A stretch of DNA of 64,000 nucleotides from Schmidtea polychroa (Eukaryota): contig CM097885.1 in assembly GCA_044892525.1 (NCBI GenBank), positions 1,364,001 through 1,428,000 on the forward strand, written 5' to 3'. Positions 14,255 through 32,390 of this stretch are shown in pieces. The notes under the pieces were generated by a model. It did no database searches. It had not been told where the DNA came from and was given only the letters and a program-made list of their open reading frames with translations. The stretch's first letter is position 1. Every line of letters starts with the position of its first letter. Both the position numbers and the translations under genes were made by a program.

Positions 14255-14970
14255 AAGTTTATATCTATACATTTGTTATTTGTTTGGTAAATTTTTATGT
14301 TTGTTATGTGTCTAGTTCATTTTTATGTGTTTAGTTAAATTTTTATGTGTTGTATAGTATGTGGTTGATATATTATTTTTATTATTATTATTATTATTAT
14401 TATTATTATTATTATTATTATTATTATTATTATTATTATTATTATTATTATTATTATTATTATTATTATTATTTCATAAAAATTTTCATTAAAAATTATC
14501 TTAAAAATTAAGCTTGAAGTAAGTAAAAAGTCAGTCAACCCAACCTCTGAGGAGGATAACACTCCACTAATACAGTGCAGACTAATTACTCTTAAGTGAG
14601 TCATATATATTGAGATGAAACTCCCTCAAATCAGGTCACTGGGAATATGACAGAGTAAGAGCTCTCAGTAGCTATAACTTTGATAAACTATCCTCACTTC
14701 AGAAGATTATGGTTTCGTTAACTTATCCCCTACTTACAATATAATTAGGCCACTCGGAGAGATGGTTCTCAACCCTTAAGGATTCTAAAATAGTTGTGCT
14801 GCTTCCGATAGAACGCTGTGTCTGGAGCTCGAGCGTTAAACTTGATAGTTTGTACAAAACGTTAGGAAGTATTGAATGTATTTGAGCTTATTGATTATTT
14901 ATTTGGTTTAATTGATTTGAGTAGATTGGTTGAATGTAATTTAGCTGATTGATGATTGATTTACCTGGTA

Positions 14971-16975
14971 AGTAGAAGGAAGTGTGGTCCATGACTCATC
15001 GTTTTTTGTCATTTTTTGCACTACCCCCCATGACTCAGCGCAAAACAAAGACATATGACTCATCGATGAGTCATCCATAGCAACAGTGGTAACCATGGTA
15101 ATTAGGTCAAGGTCATTCTATTTTTAGTAACAATGTCACGTGACGTCATCAGTGACTCATCAAGGACATTCAATTTTTAGTAACAAGGTCACATGACGTC
15201 ATTCTATTTTTAGTAACTAAGCCAAGGTCATTCTATTTTTAGCAACTAGGTCAAGGTCATTCTATTTTTAGTAACAAGGTCATGTGACGTCATCGATGAC
15301 TCGTCAAGGTCATTCTATTTTTAGTAACAAGGTCACATGACGTCATTCTATTTTTAGTAACTAAGCCAAGGTCATTCTATTTTTAGCAACTAGGTCAAGG
15401 TCATTCTATTTTTAGTAACAAGGTCATGTGACGTCATCGATGACTCGTCAAGGTCATTCTATTTTTAGTAACAAGGTCATATGACTCATCATTTTTGGAA
15501 CAAAGCCAACTGACTCATTATTAAAGTATGCATGACTCATCATTTTTTAAACAAAGACATATTTAATATTTAAACAAAGACATTAAAACAAATATTTAAA
15601 TAAATACATTTAAACAAAAATTTAAATAAATACATATAAACAAATATTTAAACAAAGACATTTAATCAAATATTTAAATAAATACATTAAAACAAAGACA
15701 TATAGACAAAGAGCCATCGATGACTCATAGTTTAGATAGGGGGTTTCTTTTGTTTTGCATACACCCCCCAGTATGACTCATCGATGACTTTTTTGAACAA
15801 AGACCAATAATTTATTTTTAAAACAAAGACTCATCACACGACTCTAATTTTTAGAACAGAATTCTTTTTTAGTAAACCAAAATTTATTGTATGTCGCTAC
15901 AGAATAATAATAATAATAATAATAATAATAATAATAATAATAATAATAATAATAATAATAATAATAATAATAATAATAATAACAATAATAATACTTATAA
16001 AAAGATACCCATTTCTTCATAAAAAAGTTTGTTTTCATAAAATTGATTTCATAAAAAAAAATAAAAATTAATCATAAAAAATTTAATTATAAAAAATTTA
16101 AATCATAAAAAATAATAATTACCTCACTTGAAAAAATATACAAAGCATCGATAACATCTAACCAATCAGAATTGGATATTTTCGATGCTTTGTTATCTGA
16201 ATATGACTCATCGATGAGTCATTGTTACTAACTGAGTAATTTCTACTCACATAAAGACATGCAATACAAGTGCAATACAAGTGCATGAAATATCTTTATG
16301 TAAGTAATAATAATAATAATAATAATAATAATAATAATAATAATAATAATAATAATAATAATAATAATAATAATAATAATAATAATAATAATAATAATAA
16401 TAATAATAATAATAATAATAATAATAATAATAATAATTATAATTATAATAATAATAATAATAATAATAATAATAATTATAATAATAATAATAATAATAAT
16501 AATAATAATAATAATAATAATAATAATAATAATAATAATAATAATAATTATAATTATAATAATAATAATAATAATAATAATAATAATAATTATAATAATA
16601 ATAATAATAATAATAATAATAATAATAATAATAATAATAATAATAATAATAACAATAATAATACTTATAAAAAGATACCCATTTCTTCATAAAAAAGTTT
16701 GTTTTCATAAAATTGATTTCATAAAAAAAAATAAAAATTAATCATAAAAAATTTAATTATAAAAAATTTAAATCATAAAAAATAATAATTACCTCACTTG
16801 AAAAAATATACAAAGCATCGATAACATCTAACCAATCAGAATTGGATATTTTCGATGCTTTGTTATCTGAATATGACTCATCGATGAGTCATTGTTACTA
16901 ACTGAGTAATTTCTACTCACATAAAGACATGCAATACAAGTGCAATACAAGTGCATGAAATATCTTTATGTAAGT
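14971..16975 (+). repeat. Left TIR, expanded by an internal 144-bp tandem repeat and a 670-bp tandem duplication
   Basis: Blocks 15470-15600, 15700-15745 and 15845-16304 are inverse-homologous to 31320-32130. 15181-15324 repeats at 15325-15468; 15985-16304 repeats at 16655-16974. Confidence 0.85.
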
Positions 16976-17390
16976 AATAATAATAATAATAATAATAATA
17001 ATAATAATAATAATAATAATAATAATAATAATAATAATAATAATAATAATAATAATAATAATAATAATAATAATAATAATAATAATAATAATAATAATAA
17101 TAATAATAATAATTATAATTATAATAATAATAATAATAATAATAATAATTATAATAATAATAATAATAATAATAATAATAATAATAATAATAATAATAAT
17201 AATAATAATAATATTTAGAAAAATAGTAATCAACAAAATATATTTAAATTACAAATTTACAATTTTACATTGTCTTTTTTACAAATGTCTATTGCATTGA
17301 TTGCTTCTTACAATCTTGTCTTCATTGACAACTATTAATAATAAAAAATAATAATTATAATAATAATAATAATAATTATTACCGAAATGA

Positions 17391-31190: not shown

Positions 31191-31309
31191 TAAATATATT
31201 AATTTAAATTATCTTTTGTCTGATATATTATTATTATTATTGGCATAAATATTATTAATTTAATTATTATTATTACTAGTATTGTCATAAATATTATTAT
31301 TATTATTAT

Positions 31310-32275
31310 TAGTATTATTACTTACATAAAGATTTCATGCACTTGTATTGCACTTGTATTGCATGTCTTTATGTGAGTAGAAATTACTCAGTTAGTAACA
31401 ATGACTCATCGATGAGTCATATTCAGAGAACAAAGAATCGATAATATCCAATTCTGATTAGTTAGATGTTATCGATACTTTGTATATATTTTTCAAATGA
31501 GGTATTTATTATTTTTATGATTTAAATTTTTTATAATTAAATTTCTTATGATTAATTTTTATTTTATTTTTTTTTATGAAACCAGTTTTTATACCAACAA
31601 ATTATATGATTTATGAAATCAATTTTATGAAAAAAAACTTTTTTAAGAAGAAATGGGTATTTATAAATTATAATTATTATAATTATTATTATAATTATTA
31701 TTATAATTATTATTATTATTATTATTATTATTATTATTATTATTATTATTATTATTATTATTATTGTTATTATTATTATTATTATTATTATTATTATTAT
31801 TATTATTATTATTATTATTATTATTAATATTATTATTATTATTGTTATTATTATTATTATAATTATAATTATTGTTCTGTAGCAACATTCAATAATTTTT
31901 GGTTTACCAAAAAAGAAACACCCTATCTAAACTATGAGTAATCGATGAGTCTTTATCTATATGTATTTATTTCAATATTTGTTTACATGTCTTTGTTTAA
32001 ATATTAAATATGTCTTTGTTTAAAAAATGATGAGTCATATGTACTTTAATAATAAGTCATTGGCTTTGTTCCAAAAATGATGAGTCATATGGCCTTGTTA
32101 CTCAAAATAGAATGAATTTGACCTAGTTAGAGCCGTTGCTATGGATGAAATCGGGGGGAAATCAGAAGAAAAAAATCCAAAAAAAATCCGAAAAAAAATC
32201 GAAAAAAAATCGGGAAAAAAATGAGTCATCGAGGGAGGGGGGTATGATGAGTCATGGAGCACACTTGTCTCTACT
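31310..32275 (-). repeat. Right TIR of the family A element
   Basis: Inverse of left TIR blocks, including TGACTCATCGATGAGTCA and the (TAT)n tract; ends CTACT. Confidence 0.85.
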
Positions 32276-32390
32276 CTGGTTGATGTTCTTGATCGGTATT
32301 GGAAGTTACGGATGAGAGTGGAGATGGTATAGTTATGGATGAGAGTGGAGAGAGTAATAACCCAATTAGATCAGTATTTTATTTTAAGTT

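What the first reader, a model, noticed from the sequence alone, without database searches (positions are those of the whole stretch)
14965..32281. Complete Polinton-like virus with an adenovirus-style host-control block (TBP, Bcl-2 and others)
Seen: matching termini, ~1-kb TIRs, a 5/6 TSD, all core replication and virion genes, and a six-gene accessory block (27746-31190) that is syntenic and essentially intact in a second diverged copy. Known: canonical Polintons encode pPolB, integrase, ATPase, protease and capsids. Inference: this lineage adds transcription-control and anti-death functions, analogous to an adenoviral early region, implying a true infectious cycle in an animal host. I do not know of this combination being described, but cannot verify novelty.
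Basis: partly seen in the sequence, partly recalled or inferred. Interest (0 to 1): 0.92.

Follow-up and report, generated by a model that had tools for sequence, protein, structure and literature searches.

The report
Polinton provirus carrying TBP and Bcl-2 genes
This is a full-length but partly broken copy of a virus-like Polinton (Maverick) transposon, abundant in this animal genome, that carries its own TATA-binding-protein-like gene, a DNA-binding replication helper and a spliced Bcl-2-like gene.

Summary
Window 14971-32275 is a bounded Polinton/Maverick insertion. Its 30-nt termini match 26/30. The 6-bp target duplication is CTGGTA/CTGGTT, and three paralogous empty sites carry the target once.

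"Complete" is true of the structure only. In this copy PolB has 3 stops and 1 frameshift, the integrase 6 stops and the ATPase 1 stop. The capsid, protease and accessory genes are open.

The TBP call is right (Pfam E 8e-16). It is not a lineage-specific extra, though. A ~145-aa short TBP sits in conserved synteny with ATPase, integrase, capsid and PolB in many metagenomic relatives.

The Bcl-2 call is right too. The gene has two exons. Exon 2 carries BH2 plus a membrane anchor, sister copies pass Pfam's cut-off, and one probable RNA contig skips exactly the GT..AG intron.

ORF135 is a T7 gp2.5/ASFV CP312R-like OB-fold protein, so probably a replication ssDNA-binding protein and not a host-control gene. 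Two further conserved genes remain unknown.

Bcl2 homologues in adintoviruses, and a TBP label on one MELD virus figure, are already in print. This is therefore a new variant, not a new kind. An infectious cycle is not shown.

The parts
14965..14970 (.). left target-site duplication CTGGTA
   Evidence: a single CTGGTT stands at the paralogous empty site L117
14971..15000 (+). left terminal inverted repeat (AGTAGA...CATGACTCATC)
   Evidence: 26/30 match to the right end
15001..17390 (.). left non-coding terminal region. It holds a 144-bp tandem x2.9 (15103-15509), ATGACTCAT, TGACGTCA and TCAAGGTCA motif arrays, the 20-bp palindrome ATGACTCATCGATGAGTCAT (15055, 16203, 16873) and (TAA)n 16305-17213.
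17391..21225 (-). protein-primed family-B DNA polymerase, disabled. In-frame stops at 20107-20109, 19069-19071 and 18366-18368; frameshift near 18820-18833.
   Evidence: Pfam DNA_pol_B_2. Aligns to residues 1-1084 of the uninterrupted 1089-aa PolB of relative L031.
22249..22572 (-). adenain-type cysteine protease (107 aa), open
   Evidence: Pfam Peptidase_C5 E 3e-7, over cut-off; 41-53% identical in 12 related loci
22664..23890 (-). putative major capsid protein (408 aa), open
   Evidence: 163 homologue clusters of ~405-415 aa. Conserved position next to the protease. Only weak double-jelly-roll signal (hhalign E 0.0016, prob 16%; Pfam DJR-like in 2 of 21 members, E 0.039).
23887..24276 (-). 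ORF129, conserved small protein between capsid genes (putative minor virion protein)
   Evidence: 50-62% identical in 6 related loci; function inferred from position only
24269..25315 (-). ORF348, putative penton/minor capsid protein, open
   Evidence: 23-40% identical in 13 related loci, always between integrase and ORF129/MCP; fold not tested
25306..26445 (-). rve-type integrase, disabled: six in-frame stops between 25477 and 25713, and a poly-Ile microsatellite insertion
   Evidence: Pfam rve E 2e-8; alignment to the L031 389-aa integrase
26501..26992 (-). ORF163, conserved protein with a hydrophobic C-terminus (putative virion core or membrane-active protein)
   Evidence: 45-59% identical C-terminal ~82 aa in 9 related loci; dN/dS 0.19 between copies
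27020..27637 (-). A32/FtsK-type packaging ATPase, disabled by a TAA at 27275-27277
   Evidence: Pfam Pox_A32; 69% identical over 206 aa to the L031 211-aa ATPase in one frame, through the stop
27746..28183 (+). short TBP-like protein (145 aa): one full TBP repeat (63-125) plus a shortened N-terminal repeat
   Evidence: Pfam TBP E 7.9e-16, 58 bits against a cut-off of 22.9. PDB TBPs E 1.5e-11. 69 homologue clusters. Internal-repeat test. dN/dS 0.20.
28353..28646 (+). Cys-rich protein (97 aa; 133 aa in copy 2), function unknown
   Evidence: 63% aa identity between copies, pN 0.20 against pS 0.78; no Pfam hit; none in related loci
28998..29405 (+). ORF135: OB-fold protein like the T7 gp2.5 / phage Enc34 / ASFV CP312R ssDNA-binding proteins
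   Evidence: AF2 pLDDT 90.4, pTM 0.81. VIA Z 7.4/7.3/7.1/6.9 to 8hw5, 4klk, 5odk and 1je5; next row 5.4. Foldseek prob 0.94 to 5odk. Adjacent to TBP in 21 of 81 loci. dN/dS 0.09.
30026..30573 (-). Bcl-2-family gene. Exon 1 is 30573->30277 (99 aa, BH1-like MKWTIIIVGF). The intron is 30276->30206 (GTAAAT..(ATT)n..TTTTAG). Exon 2 is 30205->30029 (59 aa: BH2 PWVEDNGGWDTL plus a C-terminal membrane anchor). Stop at 30028-30026.
30690..31190 (+). 166-aa predicted type-I membrane glycoprotein (signal peptide, N-X-S/T sites, coiled coil, hydrophobic C-terminus), function unknown
   Evidence: 84% aa identity between copies, dN/dS 0.33; no family found
31191..32245 (.). right non-coding terminal region: palindrome at 31401-31420, (ATT)n 31667-31873, ATGACTCAT motifs
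32246..32275 (-). right terminal inverted repeat
32276..32281 (.). right target-site duplication CTGGTT
53547..59141 (-). second, diverged partial copy in inverted orientation. It runs from integrase fragment through ORF163, ATPase (stop at 57382-57384), TBP (56467-56904), Cys-rich, ORF135 (55241-55651) and Bcl-2 (exon 1 54135-54431, intron 54432-54475, exon 2 54476-54646) to the membrane protein (53547-54029). It has no termini.

Best explanation
Window 14971-32275 is an endogenous copy of a Polinton/Maverick (polintovirus, adintovirus-like). It was inserted by the element's own rve integrase into a host repeat, duplicating the target CTGGTT.

The family is very abundant and diversified in this 781-Mb, ~30% GC animal genome. 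Many sister copies keep long open PolB frames. This particular copy has lost PolB, integrase and ATPase to nonsense and frameshift mutations, so it could move only with help in trans, if at all.

The leftward strand carries the replication, integration and virion module: PolB, protease, MCP, ORF129, ORF348, integrase, ORF163, ATPase. A block at the right end, read on both strands, carries what I read as the 'early' functions:
(1) A compact TBP-like protein. It probably nucleates RNA polymerase II pre-initiation complexes on the element's own promoters, or competes with host TBP.
(2) A gp2.5-like OB-fold ssDNA-binding protein. It probably coats the strand displaced during protein-primed replication, the job DBP does in adenovirus.
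(3) A tail-anchored Bcl-2 homologue with BH1 and BH2. It probably blocks mitochondrial apoptosis triggered by replication or integration damage.
(4) A Cys-rich protein of unknown role.
(5) A small membrane glycoprotein of unknown role.

Shown: insertion anatomy, gene identities at family or fold level, purifying selection, conservation of TBP and the SSB-like gene across the wider lineage, and splicing plus polyadenylation of the Bcl-2 mRNA in one probable RNA data set. Inferred: every biochemical activity, the timing of expression, and whether particles are made.
For: Insertion: termini, TSD and three paralogous empty sites.

Family: Pfam hits for PolB, C5 protease, rve and A32 ATPase. Gene order ORF135-TBP-ATPase-ORF163-INT-ORF348-ORF129-MCP-PRO-PolB recurs in metagenome contigs L031, L045 and L053, and largely in L065, L077, L094 and L082. 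In L031 PolB (1089 aa), INT (389 aa) and ATPase (211 aa) are uninterrupted.

Decay of this copy.

Abundance: first-look candidates were 4185 (TBP), 2383 (Bcl-2 exon 1) and 11500 (PolB piece). 143 of 150 scored TBP matches and 139 of 150 scored Bcl-2 exon-1 matches have no stop. About 50 of the 79 closest PolB matches lie in open frames of at least 1250 codons, against 345 here (my count of its table).

TBP.

SSB.

Bcl-2:
- Profile of exon 1 against PDB: 15 of 20 weak hits are Bcl-2-family proteins, aligned at BH1.
- Pfam Bcl-2 matched 3 of 4 exon-1 homologues below cut-off, E 8e-4 to 0.1.
- Exon 2 alone: all 60 listed PDB hits are Bcl-xL or Bcl-2, best E 0.0014, aligned over BH2 and the membrane anchor.
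- Sister copies read through the intron score 31.4-34.5 bits against the 31.4 cut-off, over profile 6-100.
- An intronless homologue in a diverged subfamily (L114) scores 32.7 bits, E 1e-7.
- The two exons abut exactly (1731|1732) on the intronless paralogue L113.
- A contig of run X4 skips 54432-54475 (GT..AG). X1 has the exon-1 end joined to the exon-2 start. X4 carries 21 untemplated A 14 nt after the stop. The deep run X7 (8973 contigs laid) shows no such joint.

Selection: dN/dS 0.08-0.33, or pN 0.18-0.20 against saturated pS.
Against: - The window's own Bcl-2 exon 1 gets no Pfam hit. It has Ile where its three homologues in alignment A1 have the Arg of the NWGR-like motif.
- An AF2 model of exon 1 alone was poor (pLDDT 60.7) and matched no Bcl-2 fold.
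- The RNA nature of runs X1 and X4 is a guess by the tool. The splice joint rests on one contig plus one 10-nt loose end.
- The capsid assignment rests on position and weak profile similarity. The PDB profile search found nothing.
- Only one TBP repeat passes Pfam. The two-lobed saddle is inferred from an internal-repeat search in a 35-sequence set (E about 4e-4 to 2e-3).
- VIA Z of about 7 is in the range the tool calls 'middling'.
- Bcl-2, Cys-rich and membrane-protein homologues were found in 0 of 81 related loci. Many of those loci are short.
- No evidence of particles, episomes or horizontal spread was obtained.
Confidence: 0.82

Rival explanations
1. It is a purely intragenomic self-synthesising transposon. 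The family no longer, or never, leaves the cell. TBP, SSB and Bcl-2 serve transposition inside stem or germ cells, through own-promoter transcription, strand-displacement copying and survival of DNA damage. The capsid genes are relics or are used only for intracellular transport.
For: Enormous copy number with many subfamilies in one genome. Integration with TSD into host repeats. Passages of PMC8532177 report that planarian Polintons are piRNA targets and are de-silenced on differentiation. That applies only if this host is a planarian, which I infer and did not prove.
Against: MCP, ORF348, protease and ORF129 are open even in this decayed copy. The capsid protein is conserved at 40-83% identity over 163 clusters, and the packaging ATPase is under strong constraint (dN/dS 0.08). 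That is hard to explain without particle formation. Related elements occur in many unrelated metagenome contigs.
Confidence: 0.3
2. The accessory genes are host genes or a host-gene island caught between Polinton fragments. They are not cargo of the element.
For: The window is a nest of Polinton debris (palindrome at 2614-14254; inverted ATPase/integrase duplicates at 51-53 kb and 62.5-64 kb). The Bcl-2 gene has a spliceosomal intron, as host genes do.
Against: The genes lie inside the TSD-bounded unit whose empty site is documented. The TBP-PolB and TBP-Bcl-2 distances repeat at many genomic places. TBP and ORF135 are syntenic with capsid and PolB genes in metagenome contigs from elsewhere.
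Confidence: 0.03
3. The Bcl-2-like protein is pro-death or has a non-apoptotic role, such as membrane permeabilisation for release or mitochondrial or ER remodelling. The 'anti-death' label would then be wrong even though family membership is right.
For: Weak exon-1 PDB hits include the pro-apoptotic BAK as well as BFL-1. No BH3 or BH4 motif was assessed. Sequence alone cannot tell pro- from anti-apoptotic multi-BH members (established knowledge of the family).
Against: Exon 2 is closest to Bcl-xL. As far as I recall, virus-encoded Bcl-2 homologues studied so far are overwhelmingly anti-apoptotic (not tested here).
Confidence: 0.15

Closest known systems
Polintons/Mavericks (polintoviruses) of animals
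   Same: Protein-primed PolB, rve integrase, A32-type ATPase, adenain-like protease and capsid genes. Terminal inverted repeats beginning AG..., and a 6-bp TSD.
   Different: Carries a conserved short TBP and a gp2.5-like SSB next to the ATPase, plus Bcl-2, a Cys-rich protein and a membrane protein. Terminal regions of 1-2.4 kb are packed with ATGACTCAT, TGACGTCA and TCAAGGTCA motifs. Extreme copy number.
Adintoviruses (Starrett et al. 2021, PMC8502044; sections 3.2 and 3.4 read)
   Same: Animal-associated Polinton-type viruses with accessory genes. The paper states that homologues of Bcl2 and IAP were observed, and a 'TBP' label appears in its figure legend for MELD viruses with adintovirus-like PolB.
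   Different: I could not compare sequences with named adintoviruses, since none was available in the tools. The paper's supplementary figures that show which viruses carry Bcl2 were not seen. The TBP it labels is in the section on non-animal eukaryote data sets. No conserved TBP+SSB module or intron-bearing Bcl-2 is mentioned in the passages read.
Adenovirus early functions (E1B-19K, E2A DBP) - recalled, not tested
   Same: Works alike: linear protein-primed genome, adenain protease, an ssDNA-binding protein for strand-displacement replication, and a Bcl-2-type death blocker.
   Different: Adenoviruses have no integrase and no TBP gene of their own. E1B-19K has no detectable sequence homology here. 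DBP is not a gp2.5-like OB protein.
Nucleocytoviricota transcription and replication helpers (ASFV CP312R SSB; TBP-like proteins of giant viruses - the latter recalled)
   Same: ORF135's best structural match is ASFV CP312R (Z 7.4, 125 residues aligned). Both groups encode their own TBP-like factor.
   Different: Sequence identity is about 9%. No RNA polymerase genes here, so the TBP-like protein must work with host polymerase.
'Burro' giant Gypsy elements of planarians with a BCL-2 motif (Arkhipova & Yushenova 2019, PMC6431247; passages read)
   Same: A second mobile-element class in the same kind of genome carries a Bcl-2-like domain. One search found sub-threshold Bcl-2 hits inside open frames of 1000-3090 aa at dozens of places.
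   Different: There it is a domain inside a retroelement polyprotein. Here it is a separate spliced gene of a DNA element.

Membership tests
Polinton/Maverick | protein-primed family-B DNA polymerase | tested here: met
   Pfam DNA_pol_B_2 fragment. 41-56% identity to residues 1-1084 of the 1089-aa PolB of L031. Disabled in this copy.
Polinton/Maverick | retrovirus-like (rve) integrase | tested here: met
   Pfam rve 35.1 bits against cut-off 32.6; six stops in this copy
Polinton/Maverick | terminal inverted repeats and 6-bp target-site duplication | tested here: met
   26/30 termini; CTGGTA/CTGGTT; paralogous empty sites with one hexamer
Polinton/Maverick | A32/FtsK packaging ATPase and adenain-like protease | tested here: met
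   Pfam Pox_A32 31.3 bits (cut-off 22.8); Peptidase_C5 30.7 bits (cut-off 21.3)
Polinton/Maverick | double jelly-roll major capsid protein and penton protein | tested here: inconclusive
   hhalign to a Pfam-DJR ORF gave prob 16%, E 0.0016. DJR-like_dom matched 2 of 21 members at E 0.039. The PDB profile search was empty.
Adintoviridae (proposed) | PolB and virion proteins clustering with Alpha or Beta adintoviruses | not tested
   No named adintovirus sequences were available. All 120 listed of the 163 MCP homologue clusters are unnamed or 'hypothetical'.
TBP (PF00352) | TBP repeat above the Pfam cut-off | tested here: met
   58.1 bits against 22.9, residues 63-125; copy 2 scores 53.1 bits
TBP (PF00352) | two repeats forming the DNA-binding saddle | tested here: inconclusive
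   Only one repeat passes Pfam. A profile of the C-terminal repeat finds the strand-S4/S5-like motif (F-x-S/T-G-K-x-x-I/L-x-G) in the N-terminal halves at E about 4e-4 to 2e-3 in a 35-sequence set. One microsporidian TBP aligns over residues 13-134. No structure was predicted.
Bcl-2 family (PF00452) | Bcl-2 domain above the Pfam cut-off | tested here: inconclusive
   Window exon 1: no hit. Exon 2 of copy 2: 11.9 bits. Sister copies read through the intron: 31.4-34.5 bits, over cut-off. Intronless homologue L114: 32.7 bits. The spliced product of the window gene itself was not scored, because I did not make a joined sequence.
Bcl-2 family (PF00452) | BH1 and BH2 motifs and a C-terminal membrane anchor | tested here: met
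   BH1-like MKWT(R/I)I(I/L)VGF aligned to NWGRV of BAK. BH2 PWVEDNGGWDTL aligned to PWIQENGGWDTF of Bcl-xL, and the hydrophobic tail to its anchor.
Bcl-2 family (PF00452) | helical-bundle Bcl-2 fold | tested here: inconclusive
   Model of exon 1 alone had pLDDT 60.7. No Bcl-2 chain was listed by Foldseek or VIA.
T7 gp2.5-like ssDNA-binding proteins | OB fold with the gp2.5-type elaboration | tested here: met
   The top four of 48161 chains are CP312R, DUF2815, Enc34 SSB and T7 gp2.5: Z 7.4-6.9, 101-125 residues aligned, next row 5.4. Foldseek prob 0.85-0.94. No sequence-level hit.
T7 gp2.5-like ssDNA-binding proteins | binds ssDNA | not testable with these tools
   needs a gel-shift or similar assay

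The most novel reading that the evidence does not exclude
A compact ~145-aa TBP and a gp2.5/CP312R-like ssDNA-binding protein form an ancestral, conserved 'early' module of a large, still unnamed clade of Polinton-type viruses. The clade is seen in this genome and in at least 173 metagenome stretches. If so, Polintons of this clade bring their own transcription-initiation and replication helpers. Both have their nearest viral counterparts in Nucleocytoviricota, which would add two genes to the proposed Polinton-to-giant-virus lineage. In this host the clade additionally captured a Bcl-2 gene, as the host's giant retroelements also did. That would point to apoptosis control as a general requirement for mobile-element success in this animal's long-lived stem-cell system.
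Probability: 0.3. Interest if true: 0.72.

Novelty: new variant of a known kind. Interest (0 to 1): 0.56.

Why it matters
Polintons are thought to be ancestors of, or close kin to, adenoviruses, virophages and giant viruses. Their biology in animals is almost unknown. This family offers several things to work with:
- thousands of copies in one animal genome, many with long open frames;
- a clade-wide viral TBP and SSB whose activities can be tested with recombinant protein;
- a Bcl-2 homologue for which one probable RNA contig shows the intron spliced out and another a poly(A) tail.

If the host is, as I infer, a planarian, the system is experimentally tractable (RNAi, stem-cell biology, piRNA control). 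It could show whether animal Polintons make particles and how they keep their host cell alive.

It also corrects annotation practice. Genes of such elements can contain introns, so ORF-only reading truncates them. Here it hid the BH2 motif and the membrane anchor.

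Tried and rejected
- Sequence searches with Bcl-2 exon 1 found only two close relatives in 5.8 billion proteins. An exhaustive profile search of 1.84 billion representatives found nothing further that was credible (the second hit is a 20-residue repeat match).
- The ESM Atlas gave no usable hit for Bcl-2 exon 1 or for the membrane protein.
- AF2 of exon 1 alone gave pLDDT 60.7. Foldseek pdb and VIA wide listed only generic helical matches. I treat this as uninformative because half the domain (exon 2) was missing.
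- IMG/VR held only one weak TBP relative, at 26% identity.
- ORF135 has no Pfam or PDB sequence-level match.
- MCP: no Pfam hit and an empty PDB profile search.
- Bcl-2, Cys-rich and membrane-protein homologues were not detected in 81 related loci by tblastn or by phmmer over 1843 ORFs (all E > 0.05). Many loci are under 3 kb, so this does not show absence from the clade.
- An alternative genetic code as the cause of the in-frame stops was rejected. The stops are a mix of TAA and TGA at non-homologous positions in the two copies.
- Introns as the cause of the PolB, ATPase and integrase breaks were rejected. The alignments to L031 run through the stops without gaps.
- Expression: no RNA holder was listed on record. 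Parts of the stretch without contig cover in X4 and X2 are not interpreted.
- Literature searches that found no description of a TBP/SSB/Bcl-2 Polinton module. The library is open-access papers and bioRxiv only. The supplements of PMC8502044 were not read.

Full report
WHAT IS THERE.

The window is ~30% GC and rich in mobile-element debris. Between 14971 and 32275 lies a 17.3-kb unit.
- Its ends read AGTAGAAGGAAGTGTGGTCCATGACTCATC and, on the other strand, AGTAGAGACAAGTGTGCTCCATGACTCATC. They agree at 26 of 30 bases.
- The 21-nt core occurs only at these two places in the window, with 0.00 expected.
- The unit is flanked by CTGGTA and CTGGTT.

The left flank belongs to a small host repeat family with 7 other genomic matches.
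- I compared 6 of these 7 loci with both flanks and with the left terminus; L120 was left out.
- In L117, L118 and L119 the left flank runs directly into the window's right flank with the hexamer present once. L122 does so with a more diverged junction.
- L117 is letter-for-letter the window's flanks around a single CTGGTT.

This is the signature of a real integration with a 6-bp target duplication. One base of the left copy has changed since.

THE ENDS.

The '~1-kb TIR' is an overstatement.
- Only ~30 nt align in register.
- Further in, the ends share a subterminal unit at different offsets (92.6% over 163 nt).
- They also share the palindrome ATGACTCATCGATGAGTCAT (15055, 16203, 16873 and 31401) and long (AAT)n tracts.

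The motif content is striking.
- ATGACTCAT occurs 18 times in the window, all inside the element. 17 are in the terminal regions and one is upstream of PolB. The expected count is 0.81.
- TGACGTCA occurs 5 times, all at 15141-15436, against 0.41 expected.
- TCAAGGTCA occurs 5 times, all at 15107-15456, against 0.53 expected.

The last two sets lie in a 144-bp tandem array, so they are not independent. By recall these are the consensus sites of AP-1/GCN4-type, CREB/ATF-type and monomeric nuclear-receptor factors. I offer that only as a lead.

CORE GENES AND THEIR STATE.

On the minus strand lie, in order:
- PolB, in four ORF pieces;
- a 107-aa adenain-type protease;
- a 408-aa protein at the capsid position;
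- ORF129;
- ORF348;
- an rve integrase;
- ORF163;
- an A32-type ATPase.

A metagenomic relative, L031, has the same genes uninterrupted: PolB 1089 aa, integrase 389 aa, ATPase 211 aa.

Aligning them to the window shows that alignment continues in frame through stop codons.
- ATPase: one stop (TAA, 27275-27277).
- Integrase: six stops (25477-25713).
- PolB: three stops (20107, 19069, 18366) plus a frameshift near 18820-18833.

The stops are a mixture of TAA and TGA, and the alignments are ungapped across them. Neither a variant code nor introns explain them. The copy is decayed.

MCP, ORF348, the protease and all accessory genes are open.

The capsid identity of the 408-aa protein rests on three things: its conserved place, 163 homologue clusters and a weak profile match to a Pfam-DJR ORF. 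A PDB profile search was empty.

THE ACCESSORY BLOCK.

I find five genes conserved between the element and the inverted partial copy at 53547-59141. All are under purifying selection.

| Gene | dN/dS or pN vs pS |
|---|---|
| TBP | 0.20 |
| ORF135 | 0.09 |
| membrane protein | 0.33 |
| Cys-rich | pN 0.20 vs pS 0.78 |
| Bcl-2 exon 1 | pN 0.18 vs pS 0.86 |

(1) TBP.
- Pfam E 7.9e-16 for residues 63-125. The best PDB relatives are archaeal and microsporidian TBPs, not animal ones.
- It belongs to a family of ~145-160-aa proteins with 69 clusters in the large protein collection.
- A scan of metagenome contigs gave 173 confirmed stretches, of which 80 were kept.
- Over these 80 loci plus the one IMG/VR locus, tblastn with the window's proteins found the ATPase next to TBP in 26, ORF135 in 21, integrase in 18, ORF348 in 13, MCP in 12, protease in 12, and PolB pieces in 5-8.
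- The longer contigs (L031, L045, L053, L065, L077, L094, L082) reproduce all or most of the window's gene order, at MCP identities from 60% down to 26%.

So the TBP is an old, conserved gene of a whole Polinton clade.

Its N-terminal half looks like a shortened TBP repeat. A profile of the C-terminal repeat finds the F-x-S/T-G-K-x-x-I/L-x-G strands there.

(2) ORF135.
- With a 19-sequence alignment AlphaFold gave pLDDT 90.4.
- The four best of 48161 chains are ASFV CP312R, a DUF2815 phage protein, phage Enc34 SSB and T7 gp2.5. They score Z 7.4-6.9, and the next row is 5.4.
- Foldseek agrees.
- I read it as the element's ssDNA-binding protein, a replication function.

(3) Bcl-2.
- The true structure is exon 1 (30573->30277), an intron GTAAAT...TTTTTTAG (30276->30206, holding the (ATT)n tract), and exon 2 (30205->30029).
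- Exon 2 encodes ...PWVEDNGGWDTL... and a hydrophobic tail.
- Copy 2 has the same structure with a 44-nt intron (54432-54475).

The evidence for this is as follows.
- Exon 2 alone hits only Bcl-xL/Bcl-2 chains in the PDB: all 60 listed, best E 0.0014, over BH2 and the anchor.
- The exon-1 profile's weak PDB hits are 15 of 20 Bcl-2-family chains, aligned at BH1.
- A genome-wide Pfam PF00452 search returns element copies ~2.4 kb from TBP genes at 31.4-34.5 bits, over profile 6-100, with '1 TAG' inside, which is the intron.
- An intronless 144-aa homologue in a diverged subfamily (L114, where TBP is 55% and MCP 78% identical) scores 32.7 bits.
- On another intronless paralogue (L113) the two window exons align back-to-back at 1731|1732.
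- In public runs, one contig of X4 skips exactly 54432-54475 (GT..AG, 33 nt on the shorter side).
- A contig of X1 carries the last 10 nt of exon 1 directly before exon 2.
- X4 shows 21 untemplated A 14 nt after the stop, just behind an AATAAA.
- The deep run X7 (8973 contigs laid) shows no such joint.
- The tool only guesses that X1 and X4 are RNA.

The window's own exon 1 has Ile in place of the conserved Arg of the NWGR-like motif and gets no Pfam hit.

(4, 5) The Cys-rich protein and the signal-peptide/coiled-coil/anchor protein have no detectable relatives outside this genome.

THE FAMILY IN THE GENOME.

G000 is 781 Mb in 1012 contigs.

| Query | First-look candidates | Scored |
|---|---|---|
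| TBP | 4185 | 150 |
| Bcl-2 exon 1 | 2383 | 150 |
| 333-aa PolB piece | 11500 | 121 |

These are not copy numbers.
- 143 of 150 TBP matches lack stops.
- 139 of 150 Bcl-2 exon-1 matches lack stops.
- By my count's table, about 50 of the 79 closest PolB matches (93-95% identical) lie in open frames of at least 1250 codons.
- Identity classes near 98%, 90%, 70% and 55% indicate several subfamilies.
- For 16 of the 19 non-window TBP matches that became loci, one search lists a PolB match about 8-9 kb away, the window's spacing. The other 3 may simply lie outside the 121 scored.

The host has its own Bcl-2 genes, at up to 68 bits.

One search also found sub-threshold Bcl-2 hits inside giant open frames of 1000-3090 aa. 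Passages of PMC6431247 describe exactly such a BCL-2 motif in the 'Burro' giant retroelements of planarians. From this, and from the genome's size and composition, I infer that the host is probably a planarian flatworm. I did not verify that.

Passages of PMC8532177 report that planarian Polintons are piRNA-controlled and de-silenced on differentiation. In the passages I saw they say nothing about gene content.

HOW IT MOST LIKELY WORKS.

- Integration by the rve integrase is shown by the anatomy.
- Replication is by protein-primed PolB helped by the gp2.5-like SSB. The family assignments are shown; the activity is inferred.
- Expression of the element's genes is assisted or redirected by its own TBP-like factor acting with host RNA polymerase II. 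This is inferred, as no polymerase genes are present.
- The cell is kept alive by a tail-anchored Bcl-2 homologue. Family membership and mRNA processing are shown; the direction of the effect is inferred.
- Assembly and maturation use MCP, penton, A32 ATPase and adenain. This is inferred from family membership and constraint.

The comparison with adenoviral early functions is fair as an analogy, but it is not evidence for infection.

NOVELTY.

Starrett et al. 2021 already state that adintovirus homologues of Bcl2 and IAP were observed. They also label a TBP gene in a figure of MELD viruses with adintovirus-like PolB. I did not see their supplements.

My other searches found no description of three things:
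- a clade-wide short TBP plus gp2.5-like SSB module;
- an intron-bearing Bcl-2 gene in a Polinton;
- the gene content of the planarian elements.

I therefore rate this a new variant of a known kind, of moderate interest.

Noticed in passing
window 2614-14254: A large palindrome centred near 8430, with arms of ~5.8 kb. Mirrored ORF pairs include the C-terminal third of another Polinton PolB (53-54% identical to L031 PolB, at 2791-3849 and 13016-14083) and a DUF4371 ORF (7388-8362, mirrored at 8503-9477). The studied element sits right next to its right arm.
   Followed up: partly
window 51207-52963 and 62520-64000: An inverted duplicate carrying the A32-type ATPase and the integrase (34-35% identical to L031's) of a different Polinton family. 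The two arms bracket the copy-2 fragment and a 309-aa ORF (60800-61726) that hits Pfam DJR-like_dom at E 1.7e-17. This is either nested insertions or a rearranged second element. The window ends inside it.
   Followed up: partly
window 46409-49573: Several minus-strand ORFs with reverse-transcriptase domains (Pfam RVT_1, E 3e-20 and 3e-17), in the GC-richer stretch 36-50 kb. Probably a retroelement.
   Followed up: no
genome G000, dozens of places (e.g. open frames of 1000-3090 aa listed): Sub-threshold Pfam Bcl-2 matches (about 29 bits, profile 16-100) inside giant open reading frames. This fits the BCL-2 motif reported in planarian 'Burro' giant Gypsy elements (PMC6431247). Two unrelated mobile-element classes in this genome would then carry Bcl-2-like sequences.
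   Followed up: partly
window 15103-15509 and both terminal regions: A 144-bp tandem array (2.9 copies, 94% matches) stacked with TCAAGGTCA, TGACGTCA and ATGACTCAT. The 20-bp palindrome ATGACTCATCGATGAGTCAT recurs at 15055, 16203, 16873 and 31401. These look like transcription-factor or terminal-protein/integrase binding sites. Their function is unknown.
   Followed up: partly
window 54135 (run X4): A contig covering 53905-54135 ends in 15 untemplated A on the + strand. That is antisense to the membrane-protein gene and ends exactly at the Bcl-2 start codon. Unexplained. It may stem from another copy.
   Followed up: no
window 25711-26445, 30206-30276, 28638-28808, 16305-17213, 31667-31873: (AAT/ATT)n microsatellites have expanded inside the element. 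One encodes a poly-Ile insertion in the integrase. One fills the Bcl-2 intron, which made the first-pass ORF look as if it ended in poly-Leu.
   Followed up: yes
L114 (G000:C1:15398000-15407999): A diverged subfamily (MCP 78%, TBP 55% identical) has a different gene order. Its intronless Bcl-2 gene lies between PolB and ORF135/TBP. So the Bcl-2 gene has moved, or was acquired separately, within the genome's Polinton population.
   Followed up: partly
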